Assembly (NCBI GenBank): GCA_963701735.1
Contig: CAVPBI010000013.1
Span: forward strand, 141,323-205,322
Source of the DNA: an uncultured Ignavibacteria bacterium
GTDB lineage: Bacteria; Bacteroidota; Ignavibacteria; UBA10030; UBA6906
Reading direction: 5' to 3'
DNA length: 64,000 nucleotides
Of this stretch, positions 2,708 through 45,530 are shown in pieces. Under the pieces are notes generated by a model. That model had not been told where the DNA came from. It searched no databases and saw only the letters and a list, made by a program, of their open reading frames with translations. A program made the position numbers and the translations under genes. The stretch's first letter is position 1; each line of letters opens with the position of its first letter.

Positions 2708-3739
2708 TCATGACGCTCCTGCCGTCATTCCTGGCGTGAGAATACTCTTGAGAGAGATCCCTTCCCGATGGACGCGGAACGCTTCATGCACGCCGTCCAG
2801 CGGGAAGTACCGCACGGGAAACCGGTCGACACGCACTGTTCCCGCCTGGAGCAGGGAGATGGCGCGGCTGAACGTGTGGGGATTGACGTACGACCCCGTG
2901 ATCGTGAGCTCTTTCGAATAGACGAGGTTTGGCTCAACGGAAATCGTCGTGCCGATCGGGCACACGCCGAAGAACACGATGCGCCCGCCCCGGCGCGCGA
3001 GCTTCAACGATTGCTCGGCGGTCACGGGGGAGCCCGCGCATTCCAGAACGACGTCCGCACCCTCGGGTGCGAGCGATCGGACCTGATCCATCACATCCTC
3101 ATGGGCGGGGTCGACCACAACGGTCGCACCCTCCATCTCGGCCAGGGCGCGCTTGTGTCCCTGCGGCTCGACGAGGACGGTACGGGCCGCTCCCGCATGA
3201 CGCGCGAGCTGCAGCATCATCAGTCCCACCGGGCCGCCGCCCAGCACCACCACCGTGTCTCCATGCCGGATCTCCGCGCGGTCGATGCCGTGGACGGCGC
3301 ACGAAAGGGGCTCGACAAAGGCGCAAACCTCGGCGGGGATCTCCTCACCCAGCACGAACGCCTGTTCCGCCGGCACGACGCAAAACTCCGCCATGCCGCC
3401 GTTCCGGTCCACCCCCAGCGCCACGAGCGAGGAACAGAGATGTACGAGACCCCGGCGACAGTAGAAGCATGTCCCGCACGAGATATTAGGGTCCACAGCC
3501 ACCCGTTCCCCCACATGGATCCCCTTGACCCTCTTCCCCATCTCCACGACGCGTCCCGCATATTCATGCCCGAGGACGACCGGCGGCGTCGAGCGCGCGA
3601 CTCCCTCGACGATGTGCAGGTCGGTTCCGCAGATGCCACACGCTTCGACCTGCACCAGAATGTCGGTGTCGCCCAACCCGGGAAGGTCCTGGGTTGTGAC
3701 TTCCATGTGATGGGCTTTGCTGAAGAGGACGGCTTTCAT
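2708..3739 (-). CDS. Zn-dependent alcohol dehydrogenase, MDR family (threonine/sorbitol dehydrogenase-like)
   Basis: 343 aa; GHEYAG Zn-ligand motif, CGxCxxC structural Zn site (CGTCFYC), Rossmann GGGPVG. Confidence 0.9.
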   Translation of the reverse strand: MKAVLFSKAHHMEVTTQDLPGLGDTDILVQVEACGICGTDLHIVEGVARSTPPVVLGHEYAGRVVEMGKRVKGIHVGERVAVDPNISCGTCFYCRRGLVHLCSSLVALGVDRNGGMAEFCVVPAEQAFVLGEEIPAEVCAFVEPLSCAVHGIDRAEIRHGDTVVVLGGGPVGLMMLQLARHAGAARTVLVEPQGHKRALAEMEGATVVVDPAHEDVMDQVRSLAPEGADVVLECAGSPVTAEQSLKLARRGGRIVFFGVCPIGTTISVEPNLVYSKELTITGSYVNPHTFSRAISLLQAGTVRVDRFPVRYFPLDGVHEAFRVHREGISLKSILTPGMTAGAS

Positions 3740-37068: not shown

Positions 37069-37310
37069 AGGGCAATCCGGATGGAGGATGGATAGATGCG
37101 GAAATCTAGAAACCAGGGGCCTGCAATGCAACACGGGAGCCCGGGTGTAGGAGTTACCTCTGTGTGGTTGGATATTCTACAAAACCTCATGTTCGGCGAC
37201 TGAAAAAAGCTCGAATTCCAGCCCAGAAACCCGTGGCATGCGATATGAACCTCGAATGCGCGGCAACACAGTCGAATCCATCATCCATCATCCAAATCGT
37301 GGAGGTATCT

Positions 37311-37809
37311 GTGCGCTATACAGCTCTCCTTGCTCGCGGCTCTGGTATGTCTGGTCCTGGCGTCCAATACGGGCCTTTCCCAGAACACCGCAAACCAGAC
37401 CCTGAACTTCTCGGTCGCTGCCATTGCGAGGATCACCGTGTCGGGTAGTCCTGCACCGCTGTCGATCACCGCTGGAACGCCAGGGACGGACGCCCTGACC
37501 CCTGTCAGCAATGCGCTGACAACCTACAGCATCACCCACAACTCCAACACGCCGCTGCAAATCACCGCGGCATTGGATGCAAACATGCCGAGCGGAACAA
37601 AGCTTGAGATCTCTCTCGCCAGCAGCAAGGGATCGGGCGGGAGCACAGTGGACATCACCTCAGCCGCGGCGACGGCAGTGCCCGTCGTCACCTCAATTGC
37701 CAGGGGCGCGGATGCAGGCCGTTCGATCACCTATACGTTTTCCGCTGACGCGTCTGCCGGTGCCATGTCATCGTTCGCCAGAACCGTGACGCTGACGCTG
37801 ACCAACTAG
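37311..37809 (+). CDS. secreted Thr/Ser/Ala-rich beta-protein A (candidate pilin/SCPU-like fibre subunit); probable GTG start with +1 frameshift ~37335 (alternative TTG 37330)
   Basis: GGAGGT 5 nt upstream of GTG 37311 gives MRYTALLA then frame change to AALVCLVLASNTGLSQ (textbook signal peptide); mature ~145 aa, 45% T/S/A, ends …RTVTLTLTN. Confidence 0.45.
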
Positions 37810-37823
37810 GAGTGACATGAGCC

Positions 37824-37841
37824 CCGGGGAGAGATCCCCGG
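37824..37841 (+). terminator. GC hairpin (ccgggg-agagat-ccccgg) followed by AT-rich tract, 15 nt after gene A stop; candidate attenuator/partial terminator
   Basis: Perfect 6-bp stem read from sequence, then acattcaatcattcata (AT-rich for this genome); 200-bp gap before gene B. Confidence 0.45.
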
Positions 37842-38015
37842 ACATTCAATCATTCATACGGCCCGGAGGGCGGTGGGACTTTCCGGGAACCGAACATGGT
37901 CGCCGCGTGGGGGTGCGCTAGGCCCGCGCGGCGACATGTTGCTTTGATGGGATACCCTATGACATCGGACTTTCGAGGGAGAATGGGCGGAACCCCGGAG
38001 CCACCGGTCGCTGCC

Positions 38016-38519
38016 ATGCGCCAAAGGAGAGCCGCTCTCCTTGCCTTTGCAGCCGCGCTCGTCGCGGTCATCATCTCCACTCCGACAGCATCAGCGCAGA
38101 TATTCGACATTGGCACGCACACCATCAACGTCCAGGTCTCCCCGATCACAGTCCTGGCTGTCCAGGGGGGAGCAGTGATGTTGAACGTCACGGACGCAAA
38201 TGTGACCGCGGGGGTGGACGCCATGACGGTGCAGGATCAGTCCACGCGGCTCGCCTGGGGCACGAATAGCAGCGCCAGGAAGATCACCGCGCAGACAAGC
38301 CTCGCGGCGCCCCTGTTTCAGCTTCGGCTGGCCGCCGTGGGTCACACGCGCGGGAATCCAGCCCCGGAGATGCTCCTCGGGACGTCGCCGCAAAACCTGA
38401 TGCTCGATATCGGCCGATCGCTTGGCAGCTGCACGCTCCGGTACACAGGGACGGCGCTCGCCTCACGGGGGGTTGGGACAGACATCCATACGATCACGTT
38501 CACGGTCACGACCCAATGA
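38016..38519 (+). CDS. secreted beta-protein B (paralog of A/C; candidate minor pilin-like subunit)
   Basis: MRQRRAALLAFAAALVAVIISTPTASAQ signal; mature N-terminus IFDIGTHTINVQVSPITV alternating hydrophobics; C-terminus …DIHTITFTVTTQ. Confidence 0.45.
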   Translation: MRQRRAALLAFAAALVAVIISTPTASAQIFDIGTHTINVQVSPITVLAVQGGAVMLNVTDANVTAGVDAMTVQDQSTRLAWGTNSSARKITAQTSLAAPLFQLRLAAVGHTRGNPAPEMLLGTSPQNLMLDIGRSLGSCTLRYTGTALASRGVGTDIHTITFTVTTQ

Positions 38520-38980
38520 ATGCTCCACTGCGGTTCGGATTTCTCGCGGTTCTGATGTGCATCGCCGCGATGGCAGGAGCACAGGATCTGAGTGTCCGGG
38601 GAGGGAACCAGGTCCTTCAGATTACGTCAGCACAGACCGGCCAGGAACCGACACCGGTCGTGAACACGGCGACGAACCTCAGGTATCGCCGGCAGCCACA
38701 GACGTCCAAGATCACGGTATCAACAAGCTGTCCCGGTCAGAGCTTCACGTTGCGCGTCAGGGCAGTCAGTGTTCAGGACGGAACTCCCGCCCCGACAGTC
38801 ACACTCACCAACGGGATGCCGGCGGCCGATCTGGTCAGGGACATACCGGCCGAGGGCGGCAGACCGCGCCGCCGCACGGCGACGCTTGAGTACACCGCCA
38901 GCGCAAGCTTTAAGCAGGGAAACAGCAACGAAGTCGGCGCGGACGCCCACGTCATCACATTCACACTCGTAGCACAATAG
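38516..38980 (+). CDS. secreted beta-protein C (paralog of A/B; candidate pilin-like subunit)
   Basis: ATGA start/stop overlap with B; signal MNAPLRFGFLAVLMCIAAMAGAQD; C-terminus …AHVITFTLVAQ nearly identical to B's. Confidence 0.45.
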   Translation: MNAPLRFGFLAVLMCIAAMAGAQDLSVRGGNQVLQITSAQTGQEPTPVVNTATNLRYRRQPQTSKITVSTSCPGQSFTLRVRAVSVQDGTPAPTVTLTNGMPAADLVRDIPAEGGRPRRRTATLEYTASASFKQGNSNEVGADAHVITFTLVAQ

Positions 38981-38991
38981 CACCGCTCGCC

Positions 38992-39813
38992 ATGAAACCA
39001 CTCCCCCATATAGCATGTGTCATCCTGCTCGTCACCCTGTGCGCGACCGTGGCCGCCGCGCAAATCGCGCTCGTGGGCGACCTGAGCTACGACCGCCAGG
39101 CTTCCCCCGGCGATTCATACGAAGGGTCCTTCACCCTCCGGAACGACGGGGCCCAGCCTGCAGAAGCAAAGATCTATCAGACCGATTACAGCTTTTCGTG
39201 CAACGGCGAGACAGAGTACGGCGAGCCCGGGCGCTTGGCGCGATCGAACGCCCGGTGGATCGAGTTTCGCCCGGACCGCCCTGTGATTCCCCCCCATGGA
39301 TCGGTGGTGGTCCAGTACTCGGTGAAAGTTCCCCGGAACGCCGGAAACGATTCGCTCACAGGGTGCTACTGGAGCATGCTGATGGTGGAAGAGGTTGTCT
39401 CGGGATCGCCTGAGTCCGCTCTCCCCTCCGCCAACCAGCAGAGCATGGGACTGCAGCAGAAGATCCGATACGCGGTTCAGATCGCGACACATATCACGGG
39501 CACCGGAACCTCTTCCGTCCAGTTTTCGGAGCCAGCCCTCACACAGGTCGACTCTGTCGGGAAGGCTCTCCGCGTATCGATCACCAACACAGGCGAGACC
39601 TGGATGCGTCCGGACGTGTACCTCGAGCTCTTCGACGCATCCGGGAAATCGCAAGGCCGCATCGAGGGGAGTAAATTCCGGATGTACCCGGGAACGTGCG
39701 TGCGGCAGGAGATCAGGCTCCCGTCCCTGCCTCCCGGCGACTACACGGCGCTTGTCGTCGTTGATGCCGGCGGAGAGCAGGCATTCGGCGCCCAATACAC
39801 CGTGAAGCTCTGA
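38992..39813 (+). CDS. periplasmic two-domain beta-sandwich protein D (candidate pilus-assembly chaperone; PapD-like or CARDB/NEW3-like Ig fold)
   Basis: Signal MKPLPHIACVILLVTLCATVAAAQ; domain 1 …RQASPGDSYEGSFTLRNDGAQPAEAKIYQ…WIEFRPDRPVIPPHGSVVVQY… (resembles FimC TRVIYPAGQKQEQLAVTNN…LIQSW / FIVTPPLF…LRI pattern but also E's N-terminal repeats); second ~110-aa domain. Confidence 0.4.
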   Translation: MKPLPHIACVILLVTLCATVAAAQIALVGDLSYDRQASPGDSYEGSFTLRNDGAQPAEAKIYQTDYSFSCNGETEYGEPGRLARSNARWIEFRPDRPVIPPHGSVVVQYSVKVPRNAGNDSLTGCYWSMLMVEEVVSGSPESALPSANQQSMGLQQKIRYAVQIATHITGTGTSSVQFSEPALTQVDSVGKALRVSITNTGETWMRPDVYLELFDASGKSQGRIEGSKFRMYPGTCVRQEIRLPSLPPGDYTALVVVDAGGEQAFGAQYTVKL

Positions 39814-39823
39814 CAGGTTCTCA

Positions 39824-42553
39824 ATGCGGAACGCGCCCACACGGATCCGCGTGCTCCTCCGCCTCGCGCTGACGTTCGCGGCGGTCCTGGCACCCGTGTG
39901 TGCCGCTGCCCAGGAACCGGCCGCCCGCATTTACGTGCAGGCTCTCTTCGCACCGTTCGACACGCTCAGGCCGGGCAACATCCAGACCCTCCCCTTCCGC
40001 ATCGAGAACCGCGGCGACTCCACGGTGTCTGTGACCGATCGCCTCGACGCTCCCCGCGGATGGAACGTGGTTGCGGGAACGGCCGGGCTTGCGCTGAAGC
40101 CGGGCGAGTCCGCCACCCGCCTCGTCTCCGTGTCGCTCTCGGCAACCGCCGAAGAAGGGATTCACGAGATCCGGTACACCGTCACCCCAACCGGCATGGA
40201 CGGCAGCGTGACCCTGCCGCTCCCCGTCCGCGTCGCGGCACGGAAAGGATTCAGCGTCCAGTTCCTGGACGGCCCAGCCATGCTGCCCGCGGGCGAGACA
40301 TCCATCGTCCGCTTCATTGTGCAGAATAGCGGCAACATCCCTGTCTCGCTGTACCTCAACGCGTCGACAACCGGGGGCGGCCAGGCTGCGCCTGAGTCCA
40401 CCATCGTGTATGTGCGGCCCGGCGAGGCGCGGGACGTCTCGGTGAGGGTGCAGTCGCCGGAGCATACCCGGTCGCGACAGCAAGCCGTGATATCGCTCTC
40501 GGCAACCGTCGTCAACGATTCCGCGATCACCCGCCAGGCCTCCACGGTCATCGAGATGATTCCGCGGACGTCCACAGAAGGTCCGGACCCCTACGTGCGG
40601 CTCCCCATGCGCGCTACGCTCAGGTTCGCCGGGGAAGAAGGACGCACGGGATTTCAGGGCGAGCTCGCCGGCATGGGGTATCTCGGGGCCGCCCAGCAAG
40701 ACCGCTTCGATCTCTTTGTGAGGACTCCGAATCTTCAGGAGATATCCATCCTGGGGCAGATCGACGAATACCGTGCCGCACTCGAGGGTCAGCGGTACAC
40801 GCTCGTCGTCGGCGACGCCACATATGCGCTCACGCCGCTCACCGAATACGGCAGGTTCGCCTTTGGCGGCGGGGGCAAGGTCGAACTTGGGGACATCGAA
40901 CTGGGCGGGTTCTACAACCGCAATCGTCTGGCCGCCTCCAATCAACAGGAGGTCGCGGGTTTCGCAGCGCTCTCCGTCACTCCTCAGGCGAAAATGTCCC
41001 TGCAGTATCTCGGGAAGTCCGAACAGTTCGAGAGCTCGATCGCCTCCTTCCGTACGCTTATCGAACCGACCGAGTATTCGCAGATCGATGGGGAATTCGC
41101 GCGCAGTTTCACCGGCGGTGAGTACGAGGACGCGTATGCACTGAGGTTGAGCGGCCGGACACAGGTTGTGATGTATGACCTGACCTACATTCTCGCCGGT
41201 CCGAACTTCACCGGCTACTACAGGGATACGGACCACAGAACCGCCTCCATCGTGGTGTACCCGTGGAAACTGCTGAGGCTGGAGGCATACCTCCGCGACG
41301 AGGACCGCAACCTCGACAGGAACCCCGCGCTGTACGCCGCCCCCCGACAGAAGCACCTGCAGGCGGGCGCCGGGTATGGCAACTACCTGACCGTTCTGTA
41401 CAAGACGTCAAGCTACGTCGACCAGCTCGAGGCGAAGAAGTTCGACAGACACGACAACACCGTGCTGATCCGGAGCGGGCACAGCGCCGGGAATATGACG
41501 CTCCTTGCAGAGGCAGAGGCGGGCACGATTGCCGAGCGGGCGTACAACACATCCGGCCCGTACCGCAGGCTCATGCTGTTCACCGGGTTCTCCCCGTGGA
41601 GCGGTCATCAGTTCGGCGTCAACCTCGAATACTTCAAGGACCTCCAGCTCCAGACCGGGGCACCGATCGACCGCATCGCCGCAACGCTGAACGGCCGGGA
41701 TGCAATCGGCGGACACACGTGGGTCGACGTCAACCTTCACCTGAGCCGCACGATCTCGGAACCCCGCCAGACATATCAGGTCCTTGAAGGCGGCATCCTC
41801 CATGAACTTCCCTTCGGCCATACAGTCGGCGCTCGCGGTCGGTTCACCCGGTACACGCCTTCTCTGGCGGGATCCGATGCCGCCTTTCTTCTCGAGTACA
41901 GCGTCCCGTTGGGCGTACCCATCGGCCGCGATGCCGGCGTGGGCACCCTCTCGGGGCGGCTCATCAACGACGAGACCGGCCTCGGGGTGGATGGGGCGCT
42001 GGTCTCCGCCGGCGGCCAGGCGGTGGCAACCGATGAATCGGGCCAGTTCGAATTCCCGGGCCTGGCGCCCGGCCCCCAGCATCTGACGGTGGACCTCTCC
42101 TCTCTTCCCAGAGGGACCATGCTGGCCGGGAACGGCTCGAACCAGGTCGTCGTGACGGGCGGCGAGGACCGCGAGATCGAGCTGCGCACGATGCGGAGCG
42201 TCAGCTTCTCGGGGACCGTGATCCTCGCGGCTGCGGATTCGGCCGTGGAAGCAGACAGCACACGGCTGTCCTCATCAGACTCCGGCGTCCAGGCTGGAGT
42301 CGTGGTCGAAGCGGTCAACGGTGACTTGCTCGTGCGGCGGCTGACCGACCAGTGGGGCAGGTTCGAGTTCCGGGACATGCGGCCGGGCGTGTGGATTCTT
42401 CGCGTCGCTGGAGGCAACGTCCCTGACGGACGTCGCGCTGAGAAGGACGCGTATCACCTCTCGTTGAGGGCCGGGGAGCACCAGAATGTTGACGTCCGAC
42501 TCGTCCCGAAGAAGAAGGTCATCCAGATCCTCGAAGGGGGCGTGCTGAGGTAG
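39824..42553 (+). CDS. outer-membrane usher-like protein E: signal + 2 CARDB/NEW3-like beta-sandwiches + ~450-aa beta-barrel-like core + 2 C-terminal CarbPepD/usher-CTD-like domains
   Basis: 909 aa intact; repeats …FRIENRGDSTVSV…LALKPGESATRLVSVSL… / …IVQNSGNIPVSL…VYVRPGEARDVSVRV…; amphipathic strands (…YTLVVGDATYALTPLTEYGRFAFGGGG…); …GTLSGRLINDETGLGVDGALVSAGGQAVATDESGQFEF… and …GVVVEAVNGDLLVRRLTDQWGRFEF…; non-aromatic C-terminus. Confidence 0.45.
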   Translation: MRNAPTRIRVLLRLALTFAAVLAPVCAAAQEPAARIYVQALFAPFDTLRPGNIQTLPFRIENRGDSTVSVTDRLDAPRGWNVVAGTAGLALKPGESATRLVSVSLSATAEEGIHEIRYTVTPTGMDGSVTLPLPVRVAARKGFSVQFLDGPAMLPAGETSIVRFIVQNSGNIPVSLYLNASTTGGGQAAPESTIVYVRPGEARDVSVRVQSPEHTRSRQQAVISLSATVVNDSAITRQASTVIEMIPRTSTEGPDPYVRLPMRATLRFAGEEGRTGFQGELAGMGYLGAAQQDRFDLFVRTPNLQEISILGQIDEYRAALEGQRYTLVVGDATYALTPLTEYGRFAFGGGGKVELGDIELGGFYNRNRLAASNQQEVAGFAALSVTPQAKMSLQYLGKSEQFESSIASFRTLIEPTEYSQIDGEFARSFTGGEYEDAYALRLSGRTQVVMYDLTYILAGPNFTGYYRDTDHRTASIVVYPWKLLRLEAYLRDEDRNLDRNPALYAAPRQKHLQAGAGYGNYLTVLYKTSSYVDQLEAKKFDRHDNTVLIRSGHSAGNMTLLAEAEAGTIAERAYNTSGPYRRLMLFTGFSPWSGHQFGVNLEYFKDLQLQTGAPIDRIAATLNGRDAIGGHTWVDVNLHLSRTISEPRQTYQVLEGGILHELPFGHTVGARGRFTRYTPSLAGSDAAFLLEYSVPLGVPIGRDAGVGTLSGRLINDETGLGVDGALVSAGGQAVATDESGQFEFPGLAPGPQHLTVDLSSLPRGTMLAGNGSNQVVVTGGEDREIELRTMRSVSFSGTVILAAADSAVEADSTRLSSSDSGVQAGVVVEAVNGDLLVRRLTDQWGRFEFRDMRPGVWILRVAGGNVPDGRRAEKDAYHLSLRAGEHQNVDVRLVPKKKVIQILEGGVLR

Positions 42554-42724: not shown

Positions 42725-45530
42725 ATGACCCTCATGAGCATTCCGCCCGGACTGTTCCGGGCTTTCCTGTTGACGAACACCGGAGTCCTGCTGGTCCTCT
42801 CCGGGGTGTCGCTCTACCGGTACGGCAGCATCCCCACGGACGAGAATCTCTTCACGGGCACTCCGTCTCATGTCTATGCCCTCGATTCGGTCCGCGTCAA
42901 CCCCGTGACATTGAAGAGGGTCGCGCCCTTCCTCCTTCCCGGCGACGTCATCGTTGCAATCGACAACATCAACGTGAACACGGGGCTGAATTACAGAACC
43001 GTCGTTCAATCGGCCTCGCGCGACAGCCACACCGTGATGTTTCACCGTCTCGCGGCCAACCAGCGCTTCCTGGGACGCATGGCCGCACACGACCTGGATT
43101 CGCTGCGCGTCAGGGTCCTCCCGTCGTGCGCCTACGTGACCGCCGTCAGCCCGGGCGGCGCGTCCGACCGCGCCGGCATGCTGGTCGGGGACCTGATCCT
43201 CAGGATCAACGGGAGCACATTCTCCACAATCTCGGAGGCCGACAGGCTGATGCGCCTCGGTCAGTCGGGGAAGGCACTGCAGTATGACATCCTCCGGGAC
43301 AACACGCCCCGGACGCTGCAGGTCACGATGGCCGCGTGGGGGTTTCCGTTCGGCATCATCGTCCTCGTCGTTTCAGGGATCCTCTGGATCGCAACAGGGC
43401 TGCTCCTCGGGCTCTCCCGGCCGCAGTATCCGGGGGCTCGACTGCTCGGCATCTTCTTTGTTCTCCTTGGATTTGGCATCACGGTCCTCGCGCTCCAGCG
43501 CGAGCCGACGTTCGATCTGTTTGTGATCGTGAGGGATATCGCCCGCGTCTCAGCATTCCTGCTGGCGTTTCCAATCGCACTCCACGCCGAGCACTACTTC
43601 CCCCTGGATCAGCCGCAATACATCAGCCGGCCGTGGATTCGCTATGTGGCATACGGCATTGCGCTCGCGGGAATCCTGTTGAGCGCGGTCTGGAGTGGGG
43701 TCTGGTTCGCGTTCGCGCTGATCGCTCTGGCGGCCTTCCAGATCGTCGTCGCGATCGTGCACAACAAAGAGAAGCCGATCCGGGTCAAGGAGATCACGCG
43801 GCCGATCACGATCGCATGGTCGCTGGCGGTCGCTGGCGCCGTGGTGATCGCCATCGGTTCGACCAGCCTCGCCGTCCTCACCAACAATCAGTCTCAAACG
43901 TGGATTGGTCTCGCGGGCATCCCGTTGCTGCTCATACCGGCGTCCTACCTCTACGTGATCGGCAGACATCGGCTCTTCGGTCTGGACCTCCGGATCCGCA
44001 GGAACCTTCAGTATCTGTTCGCGGCGACATCCTGGCGCCTTGGGACCATCATCCTGTTCGGGGTGGTCCTGGTCGTCCTGTCCCGCTGGGATCCGGACGT
44101 TCCGAACATCCAGTTGACAGGGACATCGCTCGAAGTCCGCGACACTCCTCCGACCGGCGAAGAGAGGCGCGTGCTGCAGAACATCATGATCGTGGGGGCG
44201 GCGCTGCTGCTCACGGGCGTGCTCTGGAAAGCCGGATCGACGGGCCTTTCATTTCTGGACCGCCGGTTCCACCGCTCCGGATACGACTACCGGAGGGCGA
44301 CAAACGAGTTGTCGGAAGTGATGGCGCGGACACAGAGCATGACCGAGCTGGCGAAGGGGATGGTGGAGCGACTGGCGGTCCTGATGCGGGTCAAGCGGGC
44401 CGGCGTGATGTTCTTCAGGGATGAGGTGGCGTGCTGCGGGCACGAAGCCTACGGGTTTGAGGATGTCACATGGAAGGAGTTCTGCGTTCGGTCGGACCGG
44501 GCTGTCGCCGAGGGACTCAAGCGGTTTCGCGGACCGGTTGCAGTCAGCGCTCTCCCCCCTGCCGTCGCGCAGGGCTTCAGCCAGAGCGAGTTCGCCGTCG
44601 TGGTCCCTGTGTTCTCGAAGGACCGCCTGATCGGGGCACTCCTGGTCGGGGAGAAACAGTCCGAGACATCGTTTCACGAGGAAGATTTTGCGTTTCTCAC
44701 GACCGCCGCCAACCAGGCGTCGGTCGCGATCGAGAATTCCTTCCTCTACGAAGAGCTGGCGGAGCAGGAGCGCATGAAGCACGAGTTGAGAATCGCGCGG
44801 AAGATCCAGCTCGAATCCCTCCCGCAGAGCACCCCCCGTGTCGAAGGGCTGGATATTGCGGGATCCTCCGTGCCGGCAATGGAAGTTGGCGGCGACTACT
44901 ATGACTATCTCACCGGCGAGGCGGGCACGCTTACCGTCATCATGGGTGATGTCAGCGGGAAGGGAACGTCGGCTGCGCTCTACATGTCGAAAGTCCAGGG
45001 GATTATGCGCTCGCTCCATGCGTTCGGACTCGGGCCGCGCGATCTCCTGCTGCGTGCCAATTCCCTGCTCCACGGCGACATCGAGAAGCGGTCGTTCGTC
45101 ACCGCCGTGGGTGCCAGGTTTGACATCCCCGGATCGCCGCGTGCGCATTGCCCGGGCCGGGCACCTTCCGGTATACCACTATCGGGCCGGTGAGCGGGCG
45201 GTGGCCAGAATTCTGCCGCGGGGACTCGGGTTAGGCTTGAACTCAAGCCCCCTCTTCGAAGAAGAGCTGGAAGAAGTCTCGATACCGTTCGCGCCGGGCG
45301 ACCTGTTTGGGTTTGTCACCGATGGCGTGACAGAGGCCGAGCGCGCCGGAGGCGAGCAGATCGGCGAGGAGAGGGTGATGGCGGTGCTGCGGGAATGTGC
45401 GGGCGAGAACGCGACTGCGGTGCGCGACGCCGTCCTCCGGGCCGTGGAGGAATTCGCAGACGGGGAACGACAGACGGACGACCGGACGGTCGTCGTGGTC
45501 CGGATTACCGCGCTCCGGGCTGGCTCATAG
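42725..45530 (+). CDS. PDZ / multi-TM sensor / GAF / PP2C (SpoIIE-RsbU-type) serine phosphatase; frameshift ~45130-45180
   Basis: PDZ-like …VSPGGASDRAGMLVGDLILRINGS…; >=8 TM helices; GAF …FAVVVPVFSKDRLIGALLVGEK…; phosphatase …GGDYYDYL…VIMGDVSGKGTSAALYMS… continuing in ORF 44838-45530 frame (…RIARAGHLPVYHY…TDGVTEA…). Confidence 0.75.

What the first reader, a model, noticed from the sequence alone, without database searches (positions are those of the whole stretch)
37311..38980. Three paralogous subunit-like proteins with a conserved C-terminal beta-strand and alternating-hydrophobic N-termini
B and C end in near-identical strands (DIHTITFTVTTQ / AHVITFTLVAQ) and A ends RTVTLTLTN. These alternate hydrophobic residues like the C-terminal F strand of chaperone-usher pilins (compare FimA …TFKVQYQ). 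The mature N-termini (A: TLNFSVAAIARITV; B: IFDIGTHTINVQV; C: VLQITSAQ) also alternate hydrophobics, as donor-strand extensions do. A is followed by a hairpin and a 200-bp gap while B-E are translationally coupled. That layout fits a major subunit (A) plus minor/adaptor subunits (B, C).
Basis: partly seen in the sequence, partly recalled or inferred. Interest (0 to 1): 0.6.

Follow-up and report, generated by a model that had tools for sequence, protein, structure and literature searches.

The report
Undescribed chaperone-usher-like surface fibre operon
The three small proteins are real paralogues that sit in a five-gene operon resembling the chaperone-usher machines that build bacterial pili, but made from protein families never linked to pili, and found in many poorly studied bacterial phyla.

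Summary
A (37311/37330-37809), B (38016-38519) and C (38516-38980) are secreted paralogues. BLASTP gives B-C E=4e-14. Family profiles give A-B E=1e-26 and A-C E=2.5e-14. None has a Pfam or NCBIfam family.

They head a conserved operon, subunits-D-E, found in 80 genome loci from roughly ten phyla.

- **E (909 aa):** AlphaFold2 pLDDT is 85.7. It has two N-terminal Ig-like domains, a barrel of about 24-26 strands and two C-terminal beta-sandwiches. Its 11 best PDB matches are all the ushers FimD or PapC (E down to 3e-14).
- **A:** pLDDT is 93. Its best matches are mostly donor-strand fibre subunits (CfaB, Caf1, FimA, PapA, CanA), but only weakly (E>=3e-3).
- **D:** a periplasmic remote homologue of Gram-positive WxL-interacting proteins (DUF916+DUF3324), without their membrane anchor.
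- **N-terminal extension:** A- and B-type subunits carry a conserved 15-17-residue amphipathic extension that is not a strand in the monomer model. One subunit per locus (C-type) lacks it and sits directly upstream of D, as a tip subunit would.

There is no sequence or profile similarity to classical chaperones, ushers or pilins. Strand exchange itself was not tested. My verdict is a new chaperone-usher-like class.

The parts
37234..37249 (+). Possible sigma-54-type -24/-12 element (TGGCATgcgatATGAA), 77 nt upstream of the ancestral start of A. The -24 half is good and the -12 half is degenerate.
   Evidence: In 10 related loci a TGGCAY-N5-YTGCW element lies about 90 nt upstream of A-type genes; these are 10 of the 18 matches in those loci. 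About 22 loci carry a divergent NtrC-type regulator plus histidine kinase. No such regulator is in the window. Weak, inferred.
37311..37809 (+). Gene A, extension-bearing subunit and presumed major subunit. Ancestral GTG start at 37311. A 1-nt insertion at about 37335 shifts the frame inside the signal peptide. The intact frame runs from TTG 37330 (159 aa). The N-terminal extension is about 37381-37425 and the core is 37426-37806.
   Evidence: start and frameshift. (homology to B and C). (AF2 pLDDT 93.2; mature residues 1-14 are not a strand). (fold matches). (extension).
37810..37892 (+). Two hairpins directly after A: an outer stem at 37810-37855 with a 7-bp G+C inner stem at 37824-37841, and a second hairpin at 37859-37892. 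No U-tract. Possible attenuator or mRNA-stabilising element.
   Evidence: MFE -40.2 kcal/mol, z -2.18. The terminator scan found none here because no T-run follows. Conserved only in the near-identical L001. No Rfam family.
38016..38519 (+). Gene B, extension-bearing minor subunit. Likely start at ATG 38016 (MRQRRAALL...). Probable cleavage before Q28. The extension is about 38097-38147.
38516..38980 (+). Gene C, the subunit without an N-terminal extension (mature Q-DLSVRGG...). Presumed tip or initiator subunit. Overlaps B by 4 nt.
   Evidence: One extension-less subunit in 51 loci, immediately upstream of D in 43 of 72. A separate extension-less family sits in the same position in 15 loci from distant phyla.
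38992..39813 (+). Gene D, a 273-aa periplasmic protein with a signal peptide and no membrane anchor. Inferred to have two Ig-like domains. Remote homologue of WxL-interacting proteins (DUF916+DUF3324). Presumed chaperone.
   Evidence: family, synteny. (Pfam WxLIP hits in family members and in the Chryseobacterium homologue). (family HMM vs Chryseobacterium 2.8e-49, Deinococcus 3.3e-53). (vs Paenibacillus WxLIP, 36.9 bits). (3236 clusters at 50% identity).
39824..42553 (+). Gene E, a 909-aa outer-membrane protein. It has 2 N-terminal Ig-like domains (NEW3-type), a beta-barrel of about 24-26 strands and 2 C-terminal CarboxypepD_reg beta-sandwiches. Usher-like.
   Evidence: Pfam domains. (AF2 pLDDT 85.7). 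(top 11 PDB matches are FimD/PapC, E 3.3e-14 to 2e-10, 728-921 alignment columns; other barrels about 1e-5 to 1e-6).

Best explanation
A-E encode a previously undescribed chaperone-usher-like system that secretes and assembles a surface fibre or pilus in a diderm Ignavibacteria-group bacterium.

Proposed mechanism:
1. A, B and C are exported by Sec, probably with signal peptidase I cleavage before a Gln.
2. D is periplasmic. I infer that it has two Ig-like domains and caps each subunit by lending a beta-strand. The conserved strand QTIRYGIQIATHI at the end of its first domain is my candidate.
3. E is an outer-membrane barrel with periplasmic N- and C-terminal beta-sandwich domains. It receives D-subunit complexes and threads subunits outward.
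4. C has no N-terminal extension, so it enters first and forms the tip.
5. B and then many copies of A follow. Each inserts its conserved extension (consensus T-A-T-Q/H-T-V-T-L-x-V) next to the C-terminal strand of the previous subunit, by donor-strand exchange.
6. A is made in excess because it is the first gene and is followed by a hairpin and a spacer.

Shown here: the paralogy, the synteny, the usher-like fold of E, the pilin-like fold ranking of A, the presence or absence pattern of the extension, and the D-WxLIP relationship.

Inferred: strand donation by D, polymerisation, subunit order and stoichiometry.
For: - **Synteny.** Subunits-D-E occur together in essentially all 80 loci from Ignavibacteriota, Bacteroidota (including cultured Chryseobacterium), Deinococcus, Desulfobacterota, Planctomycetota, Verrucomicrobiota, Gemmatimonadota and others. 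C-type to D and D to E are tightly coupled, with median gaps of 6.5 and 10 nt.
- **E.** The AF2 model has pLDDT 85.7. The top 11 PDB matches are exclusively FimD or PapC ushers, E 3.3e-14 to 2e-10, aligned over 728-921 columns. Other outer-membrane barrels reach only about 1e-5 to 1e-6. The domain order, N-terminal sandwiches then barrel then two C-terminal sandwiches, is that of ushers.
- **A.** The AF2 model has pLDDT 93.2 and pTM 0.84. About 33 of the top 50 PDB matches are chaperone-usher pilins (CfaB, CS17, Caf1, FimA, PapA, FimF/G, CsuA/B) or other donor-strand fibres (CanA cannulae, Ena2A).
- **N-terminal extension.** Lengths are bimodal: about 0 in 54 proteins and 14-18 in 130 proteins. 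Three alternating positions are 100% hydrophobic and a Q/H is 97% conserved. It is not a strand in the monomer model. One extension-less subunit occurs per locus in 51 loci, next to D.
- **C-terminus.** The last strand lies at the extreme C-terminus in 270 of 274 members.
- **D.** The Chryseobacterium homologue passes Pfam thresholds for WxLIP_PGBD and WxLIP_HBD. For Gram-positive WxLIP, published AF2 complexes predict a hairpin strand inserting parallel into a gap of the partner's beta-sandwich (PMC10599100). That is the geometry of chaperone donor-strand complementation.
Against: - No sequence or profile similarity of D, E or A/B/C to PapD-like chaperones, ushers or fimbrial subunits (Pfam; hhalign vs E. 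coli K-12 families; PDB profile searches).
- The fold matches of A are weak: no E<=1e-3 and TM 0.35-0.47. Small beta-sandwiches match many things.
- I had no model coordinates, so an open acceptor groove in the subunits and a plug in E's barrel are unverified. The barrel shows no obvious 70-80-residue plug insert in the DSSP string.
- No multimer prediction was possible, and no experimental data exist for any family member.
- The window's gene A has a frameshift in its signal peptide. This is probably an assembly error, because a second gene in the window is also frameshifted.
Confidence: 0.6

Rival explanations
1. A non-polymerising cell-surface complex, the diderm counterpart of Gram-positive WxL/Csc clusters. 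D binds one or a few subunits by beta-strand insertion, and E exports and anchors them at the outer membrane. The result is a short heteromeric adhesin or polysaccharide-binding complex rather than a long fibre.
For: D is a remote WxLIP homologue. WxL clusters are thought to form surface complexes of one WxLIP plus two WxL proteins (PMC10599100). Several distinct subunit paralogues occur per locus. The Chryseobacterium locus lies among SusC/SusD-type genes.
Against: - D lacks the WxLIP membrane anchor (sequence; family lengths 256-290 aa).
- A, B and C have no WxL domain (hhalign vs 4 Paenibacillus WxL domains).
- The full-length usher-like fold of E, the conserved extension missing from only one subunit and the A-type gene duplications (up to 5 per locus) are what a polymer needs, not a 1:1 complex.
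Confidence: 0.2
2. A self-assembling, chaperone-independent donor-strand fibre of the Ena, TasA or CanA-cannula type. D and E would serve another role, for example as an anchor, a porin or an unrelated surface protein.
For: The best TM-scores of the A model are to Pyrodictium CanA cannulae and a related tube (TM 0.45-0.47). Ena2A is also in the list.
Against: D and E are tightly coupled to the subunit genes in about 80 loci across phyla. In a diderm, subunits must cross the outer membrane, and E is usher-like.
Confidence: 0.08
3. Not an assembly system. E is an outer-membrane channel for some other substrate, such as a polysaccharide or a solute, and A, B and C are periplasmic or surface accessory binding proteins.
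For: E also matches Wzi, AlgE, OccK porins and LptD at about 1e-5. Its flanking domains (NEW3, CarboxypepD_reg) occur in many carbohydrate-related proteins.
Against: Ushers outrank all other barrels by 8-9 orders of magnitude and align over the full length. The pattern of subunit extensions has no role in this reading. No glycosyltransferase or export genes are conserved in the loci.
Confidence: 0.07
4. A type V (FimA/Mfa1-type) pilus, as the PGAP name 'FimB/Mfa2 family fimbrial subunit' on the Deinococcus D homologue suggests.
For: The host lineage belongs to the Bacteroidota-Ignavibacteriota group, where type V pili occur. There is a marginal Pfam Mfa2 hit (21.7 bits against a cutoff of 21.2, over 58 residues) on the Deinococcus D homologue.
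Against: - Subunits have signal peptidase I-type signals, not lipoprotein signals.
- Subunits have one domain of about 140 aa, not the two domains of type V pilins.
- An usher-like outer-membrane protein is present.
- No Mfa or FimA family hit in the window proteins.
Confidence: 0.02

Closest known systems
Classical chaperone-usher pili (type 1 Fim, P pili Pap, CFA/I, Caf1; Pfam Usher PF00577, PapD_N/C PF00345/PF02753, Fimbrial PF00419)
   Same: - Operon logic: the major subunit gene comes first and is followed by a hairpin, then minor subunits, with a periplasmic protein inferred to have two beta-sandwich domains adjacent to a large outer-membrane protein.
- E's predicted fold and domain order match FimD and PapC best in the PDB.
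- Subunits of about 140 aa with an amphipathic N-terminal extension and a terminal C-strand.
- One subunit without an extension.
   Different: - No detectable sequence or profile homology for any component.
- E's flanking domains are NEW3/Ig-like and CarboxypepD_reg types, and a plug domain is not evident.
- D belongs to the WxLIP (DUF916/DUF3324) lineage, not PapD.
- The extension-less subunit is a single domain, not a two-domain lectin adhesin.
- Hosts are Ignavibacteriota, Bacteroidota, Deinococcota, Planctomycetota and others, rather than mainly Proteobacteria.
Gram-positive WxL / Csc cell-surface clusters (WxL proteins + WxLIP = DUF916-DUF3324-TMH)
   Same: - D is a remote homologue of WxLIP across both domains.
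- Small secreted beta-sandwich partner proteins are encoded next to it.
- Published AF2 models predict that WxLIP completes its partner's sandwich with a parallel strand (PMC10599100).
   Different: - D has no transmembrane helix.
- The partners have no WxL domain or WxL motifs.
- The host is diderm, and an usher-like outer-membrane protein is present that WxL clusters lack.
Archaic (sigma) chaperone-usher systems: Csu pili, spore-coat-U (SCPU) proteins
   Same: Several small paralogous subunits per operon, wide distribution outside enterobacteria, and CsuA/B among the fold matches of A.
   Different: Archaic systems still carry PF00345 chaperones, PF00577 ushers and PF05229 subunits. None of these is detected here.
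Chaperone-independent donor-strand fibres (Bacillus Ena, TasA, Pyrodictium CanA cannulae)
   Same: Single-domain beta-sandwich subunits with an N-terminal connector strand. CanA gives the best TM-scores to the A model.
   Different: Those fibres need no chaperone or usher. Here a conserved D-E pair is tightly coupled to the subunit genes.
Type V pili (FimA/Mfa1 superfamily) of Bacteroidota
   Same: Related host phyla, and polymerisation by strand exchange.
   Different: Type V pilins are two-domain lipoproteins that are activated by a protease and assembled without an usher. None of this applies here.

Membership tests
Classical chaperone-usher pathway | Usher: outer-membrane beta-barrel of about 24 strands, flanked by a periplasmic N-terminal domain and two C-terminal beta-sandwich domains | tested here: met
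   AF2 model of E (pLDDT 85.7) has 2 N-terminal sandwiches, about 24-26 long strands and 2 C-terminal sandwiches. The top 11 Foldseek PDB hits are all FimD or PapC, E 3.3e-14 to 2e-10.
Classical chaperone-usher pathway | Usher belongs to the sequence family PF00577 (with PapC_N and PapC_C) | tested here: not met
   No Pfam or NCBIfam hit at E<=1. hhalign of a 64-sequence E family against FimD/SfmD/ElfC/HtrE gives probability 0.4%. The PDB profile search finds no usher.
Classical chaperone-usher pathway | Plug domain inserted in the usher barrel | tested here: inconclusive
   The DSSP string shows only three short strands in a 57-residue segment (mature residues 257-313), with low pLDDT at 271-280.
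Classical chaperone-usher pathway | Periplasmic PapD-like chaperone (PF00345/PF02753): two Ig-like domains, with the G1 donor strand at the end of domain 1 | tested here: not met
   Sequence membership fails. No Pfam hit in D or in 30 family members. hhalign against FimC/SfmC/ElfD/YcbF/YadV aligns only the signal peptide. The two-Ig-domain architecture is inferred from WxLIP_PGBD and WxLIP_HBD hits in the Chryseobacterium homologue.
Classical chaperone-usher pathway | Subunits are Ig-like folds lacking the last strand (open groove) | not testable with these tools
   The A model is confident and its best PDB matches are mostly chaperone-usher pilins or donor-strand fibres, but with E>=2.9e-3 and TM<=0.47. 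No coordinates or multimer prediction were available to see a groove.
Classical chaperone-usher pathway | Subunits carry an N-terminal extension with alternating hydrophobic residues, and the tip subunit lacks it | tested here: met
   The 15-17-residue extension has the consensus T-A-T-[QH]-T-[VL]-T-[LV]-x-V, 100% hydrophobic at alternating positions. It is not a strand in the monomer model. Lengths are bimodal. One extension-less subunit occurs per locus in 51 loci.
Classical chaperone-usher pathway | Subunits belong to the Fimbrial (PF00419), SCPU (PF05229) or related pilin families | tested here: not met
   Pfam scan of 112 family members found no consistent family. hhalign against 13 E. 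coli pilins aligned signal peptides only.
WxL / WxLIP (Csc) clusters of Firmicutes | WxLIP protein with DUF916 (PF06030) and DUF3324 (PF11797) domains | tested here: inconclusive
   The window's D gives no Pfam hit. 11 of 30 family members hit PF06030 below threshold, best 3e-4. The full-length Chryseobacterium homologue (D-family HMM 2.8e-49) passes both gathering thresholds. The D-family HMM scores 36.9 bits against a Paenibacillus WxLIP. This points to remote homology rather than membership.
WxL / WxLIP (Csc) clusters of Firmicutes | C-terminal transmembrane helix on WxLIP | tested here: not met
   D ends ...GAQYTVKL with no hydrophobic tail. Family members are 256-290 aa, against 320-380 aa for WxLIP (PMC10599100).
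WxL / WxLIP (Csc) clusters of Firmicutes | At least two WxL-domain proteins (PF13731, dual Trp-x-Leu motif) in the cluster | tested here: not met
   No PF13731 hit among 112 subunit-family members. hhalign of the A, B and C families against 4 Paenibacillus WxL domains gives probability <4%. A contains no Trp.
Type V pili (FimA/Mfa1) | Lipoprotein signal peptide, two-domain pilin and no usher | tested here: not met
   Signals are of the signal peptidase I type with a conserved Gln. The model of A is a single domain of about 140 aa. An usher-like protein E is present.

The most novel reading that the evidence does not exclude
This is a seventh chaperone-usher class with no detectable sequence relationship to the other six. 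Its 'chaperone' descends from the same lineage as the Gram-positive WxL-interacting proteins. If so, WxL/Csc surface clusters of Firmicutes and this diderm system would be two versions of one ancient donor-strand-complementation machinery. The monoderm version keeps a membrane-anchored WxLIP. The diderm version has a soluble WxLIP-like chaperone plus an usher-like outer-membrane pore. It is widespread, at 3236 D-family clusters (50% identity), in phyla where no chaperone-usher pili are known.
Probability: 0.4. Interest if true: 0.85.

Novelty: new variant of a known kind. Interest (0 to 1): 0.74.

Why it matters
Chaperone-usher pili are the textbook model of donor-strand assembly. All known classes share homologous chaperones and ushers, and they are mainly proteobacterial.

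A structurally analogous system built from unrelated or extremely diverged families would matter in four ways:
- It would extend usher-type secretion well beyond its known range, to Ignavibacteriota, Bacteroidota, Deinococcota, Planctomycetota, Verrucomicrobiota, Desulfobacterota and Gemmatimonadota.
- It would give a function to three or four large families annotated only as hypothetical proteins.
- It would offer a mechanistic hypothesis, chaperone-like strand donation, for the poorly understood Gram-positive WxL/WxLIP virulence-associated clusters.
- It would supply tractable hosts for experiments: Chryseobacterium spp. and Deinococcus deserti plasmid 2.

Tried and rejected
- **Pfam and NCBIfam on A-E.** Only generic Ig-like and CarboxypepD_reg domains in E, and nothing for A-D.
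- **PDB sequence-profile searches** with the D, A and E family alignments. No relevant hits: JAK1 noise for D; NOMO2 and a sialidase Ig domain for E.
- **hhalign against E. coli K-12 families.** I fetched the fim, sfm, elf and yad operons and compared chaperone, usher and pilin alignments. Only signal peptides aligned.
- **Pfam on 112 subunit-family members.** No WxL, Fimbrial, SCPU or DUF4402 hit.
- **hhalign and HMM against Paenibacillus WxL domains**. No similarity. I note only a motif-level resemblance at the first strand (I-x-V-x-G-G) and the last strand (G-x-Y-x-x-x-F-T-[YF]-T). This is unproven.
- **Apparent 342-345-aa 'fused' subunits in L025 and L049.** These turned out to be ORF-calling overshoot through another frame, not natural fusions.
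- **Rfam on the A-B spacer.** Nothing.
- **Terminator scan.** No canonical terminator after A, because there is no T-run.
- **Sigma-54 activator in the window.** No GAFTGA motif.
- **Literature.** Searches for chaperone-usher with Ignavibacteria, WxL with usher, and usher-like with donor strand found nothing describing this system.
- **Type V pilus reading.** Rejected (see rival explanations).
Full report
**What is there.** On the + strand the window carries five consecutive genes:
- A: 37330-37809, with the ancestral start at 37311
- B: 38016-38519
- C: 38516-38980
- D: 38992-39813
- E: 39824-42553

All five have signal peptides of the signal peptidase I type ending ...A/S-Q. Cleavage before the Gln would fit the pattern reported for the Bacteroidota-Ignavibacteriota group (my own knowledge, not tested here). 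The closest genome hit is an uncultured Ignavibacteria MAG (L001, 92% identity for D). A hairpin pair follows A. A 206-nt gap then precedes B. B overlaps C by 4 nt, and C-D and D-E are 11 and 10 nt apart.

**Check of the observation.** B and C are clear paralogues (BLASTP E=4e-14). A is not detectably similar by BLASTP. I built family alignments from ORFs in 80 related loci. Profile-profile comparison then gives A-B E=1.1e-26, A-C E=2.5e-14 and B-C E=4e-37 over the full length. In many loci single ORFs are hit by both the A and B queries. The three proteins are therefore one superfamily. It has no Pfam or NCBIfam model (112 members scanned) and no relative in the PDB by sequence profile.

The last conserved strand ends within 3 residues of the C-terminus in 270 of 274 family members.

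Two details were wrong:
- The GTG at 37311 is the start used by near-identical homologues (P0121, P0122). The window has one extra C at about 37335 inside the signal peptide, so only the TTG at 37330 is in frame. A second frameshift splits the SpoIIE-type phosphatase gene downstream. An assembly indel is therefore the likely cause.
- C has no N-terminal extension at all.

**Conserved context.** phmmer of A-E against ORFs of the 80 loci shows subunit(s)-D-E almost everywhere. There are 1-8 subunit paralogues upstream of D. In many Ignavibacteriota and Bacteroidota loci one more extension-bearing subunit follows E, about 270 nt downstream. All-vs-all clustering finds no other universally conserved neighbour. 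However, about 22 loci have a divergent histidine kinase plus NtrC-type sigma-54 activator, and sigma-54-like promoters sit upstream of A-type genes in 10 loci. The window has only a degenerate version at 37234 and no activator.

The loci come from Ignavibacteriota, Bacteroidota, Desulfobacterota, Syntrophales, Pirellulales, Phycisphaerae, Verrucomicrobiota, Gemmatimonadota, Rhodothermales, Zixibacteria and Bacteriovoracaceae. Homologous clusters also occur in cultured organisms: Chryseobacterium glaciei (192-aa subunit, 266-aa D, 918-aa E, 178-aa and 177-aa subunits) and Deinococcus deserti plasmid 2. An exhaustive profile search finds 3236 D-family clusters (50% identity) at E<=1e-3 and 1415 at E<=1e-10. 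All named members are annotated as hypothetical.

**The usher-like protein E.** Pfam sees only NEW3/Ig-like domains at the N-terminus and CarboxypepD_reg at the C-terminus. AlphaFold2 on a 27-sequence alignment gives pLDDT 85.7. The model has two N-terminal beta-sandwiches, then about 24-26 long antiparallel strands (mature residues about 227-672), then two C-terminal beta-sandwiches. Foldseek against the PDB returns FimD and PapC ushers as the top 11 hits (E 3.3e-14 to 2e-10, 728-921 alignment columns). Generic outer-membrane barrels (Wzi, AlgE, OccK, LptD) score only about 1e-5 to 1e-6. TM-scores are low (about 0.3), as expected for multi-domain models. At sequence and profile level E is not an usher. 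Whether it has a plug could not be decided.

**The subunits.** AlphaFold2 of mature A on 44 sequences gives pLDDT 93.2 and pTM 0.84, with a seven-strand beta-sandwich. The first 14 mature residues form no strand, although they are modelled with moderate to high confidence. Foldseek finds no match at E<=1e-3. Even so, about 33 of the top 50 hits are chaperone-usher pilins (CfaB, CS17, Caf1, FimA, PapA, FimF/G, CsuA/B, the PapG pilin domain) or other donor-strand fibres (CanA cannulae, Ena2A), with TM up to 0.47. This is suggestive, not conclusive.

**The N-terminal extension.** I anchored every family member on a core HMM that starts at A's first core strand and measured the distance from the predicted cleavage site.
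- The distribution is bimodal: about 0 residues in 54 proteins and 14-18 residues in 130 proteins.
- The extension has the consensus (A)-T-A-T-[Q/H]-T-[V/L]-T-[L/V]-x-V. Three alternating positions are 100% hydrophobic and the Q/H is 97% conserved.
- One extension-less subunit is present in 51 loci. It is the gene immediately upstream of D in 43 of 72 loci, and most of the remainder were undetermined by my crude signal-peptide rule.
- In distant phyla a separate extension-less family (mature N-terminus IDITVTGSW..., C-terminus ...YTVxD) occupies the same position in 15 loci.

In chaperone-usher pili the only subunit without a donor extension is the one incorporated first, at the tip. The pattern here is the same, with C in that role.

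**The presumed chaperone D.** D has no Pfam hit. Of 30 family members, 11 hit WxLIP_PGBD (DUF916) below threshold. The Chryseobacterium homologue is full-length related to D (family HMM 2.8e-49) and passes Pfam gathering thresholds for both WxLIP_PGBD and WxLIP_HBD. The D-family HMM also scores 36.9 bits over both domains against a bona fide Paenibacillus WxLIP that is encoded next to a WxL protein and carries a membrane helix.

Hassan et al. 2023 (PMC10599100) describe WxLIP as two perpendicular Ig-like domains. They report confident AF2 complexes in which a WxLIP hairpin strand inserts parallel into a gap of the WxL beta-sandwich. That paper does not mention chaperones or Gram-negative bacteria. 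D lacks the membrane helix, so it should be soluble in the periplasm. Its most conserved stretch, YWSMLMVE-loop-QTIRYGIQIATHI, lies at the end of the first domain. This is where PapD-like chaperones carry their donor strand. That last point is inference only.

**Comparison and membership.** Functionally and architecturally the system looks like a chaperone-usher pathway. By family membership it is not one: usher, chaperone and pilin sequence families were all tested and not met. It is also not a WxL cluster. It has no WxL domain, no membrane helix on D, a diderm host and an outer-membrane component. Type V pili are excluded by the signal type, the single-domain subunits and the presence of E. 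Chaperone-free fibres (Ena, CanA, TasA) share the subunit style but not the conserved D-E pair.

**Novelty.** Six literature searches found no description of this system, nor of a link between WxLIP-like proteins and usher-like outer-membrane proteins. I therefore rate it a new variant of a known kind: a chaperone-usher-like assembly built from different families.

**Limits.**
- Donor-strand exchange, the acceptor groove, D's fold and E's plug therefore remain inferred.
- Overall confidence in the chaperone-usher-like fibre explanation is about 0.6. The main rival, at about 0.2, is a non-polymeric WxL-like surface complex.

Noticed in passing
window 37329-37340: Gene A has one extra C (about 37335) relative to the 99%-identical P0121 and to P0122. 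This shifts the frame after 'VRYTALLA' inside the signal peptide. Only a TTG at 37330 keeps a short signal peptide without a basic N-region. Probably an assembly indel, but pseudogenisation or phase variation is not excluded.
   Followed up: partly
window 42725-45530: The PDZ-GAF-SpoIIE (PP2C) membrane phosphatase gene downstream of E is split by a frameshift near 45,150-45,190. The rest of the SpoIIE domain continues in the ORF 44838-45530. This suggests the assembly carries indel errors.
   Followed up: partly
loci L010, L011, L013-L015, L022, L023, L026, L027, L033, L034, L042-L044, L054, L058 and others, 2.5-6.5 kb upstream of D, minus strand: About 22 related loci carry a divergent pair directly upstream of the subunit genes: a small histidine kinase (about 260 aa) and an NtrC-type sigma-54 activator (about 460 aa). 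Sigma-54-like -24/-12 elements (TGGCAC-N5-CTGCA) sit about 90 nt upstream of A-type genes in 10 loci. The window has only TGGCATgcgatATGAA at 37234 and no activator.
   Followed up: partly
loci L006, L010, L011, L013, L015, L016, L022, L024 and others, about 270 nt downstream of E: Many Ignavibacteriota and Bacteroidota loci encode one further extension-bearing subunit after E. It could be a terminator, an anchor or an alternative major subunit. The window and L001 lack it.
   Followed up: no
window 37381, 38097, 38582, 39061, 39911 (first mature codons of A-E): All five signal peptides end ...[A/S]-Q, and family consensus keeps the Gln. This fits the pattern reported for the Bacteroidota group, in which cleavage occurs before a Gln (my own knowledge, not tested here), and fits an Ignavibacteria origin.
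   Followed up: no
L082 (Deinococcus deserti plasmid 2, NC_012529.1 88292-89062): PGAP names the D homologue 'FimB/Mfa2 family fimbrial subunit'. Here it gives only a marginal Pfam Mfa2 hit (21.7 bits against a cutoff of 21.2, over 58 residues), so the name is probably misleading.
   Followed up: yes
L088 7085-7654 and L089 5418-6026 (Paenibacillus WxL proteins): Small WxL proteins start their mature chain with ...I-A-V-T-G-G-S-L and end ...G-T-Y-K-S-V-F-T-Y-T-A-T-S-G-I. These patterns resemble the first strand (Q-I-S-V-x-G-G) and last strand (...T-Y-T-T-T-V-Y-Y-T-V-x-D) of the extension-less subunits. Profile comparison shows no significant similarity, so this is only a lead for a structural comparison.
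   Followed up: partly
L081 (Chryseobacterium glaciei CP015199.1, 2476696-2495452): The homologous cluster in this cultured organism is flanked on both sides by SusC/SusD-like pairs and a phospholipase C gene. This hints at a link to nutrient acquisition or surface binding.
   Followed up: no
L083 (Cohnella herbarum plasmid NZ_CP051681.1): A Gram-positive DUF916 protein lies downstream of a TadA-type ATPase gene and several small hypothetical genes, not next to annotated WxL proteins. This is a different genomic context for the WxLIP fold.
   Followed up: no
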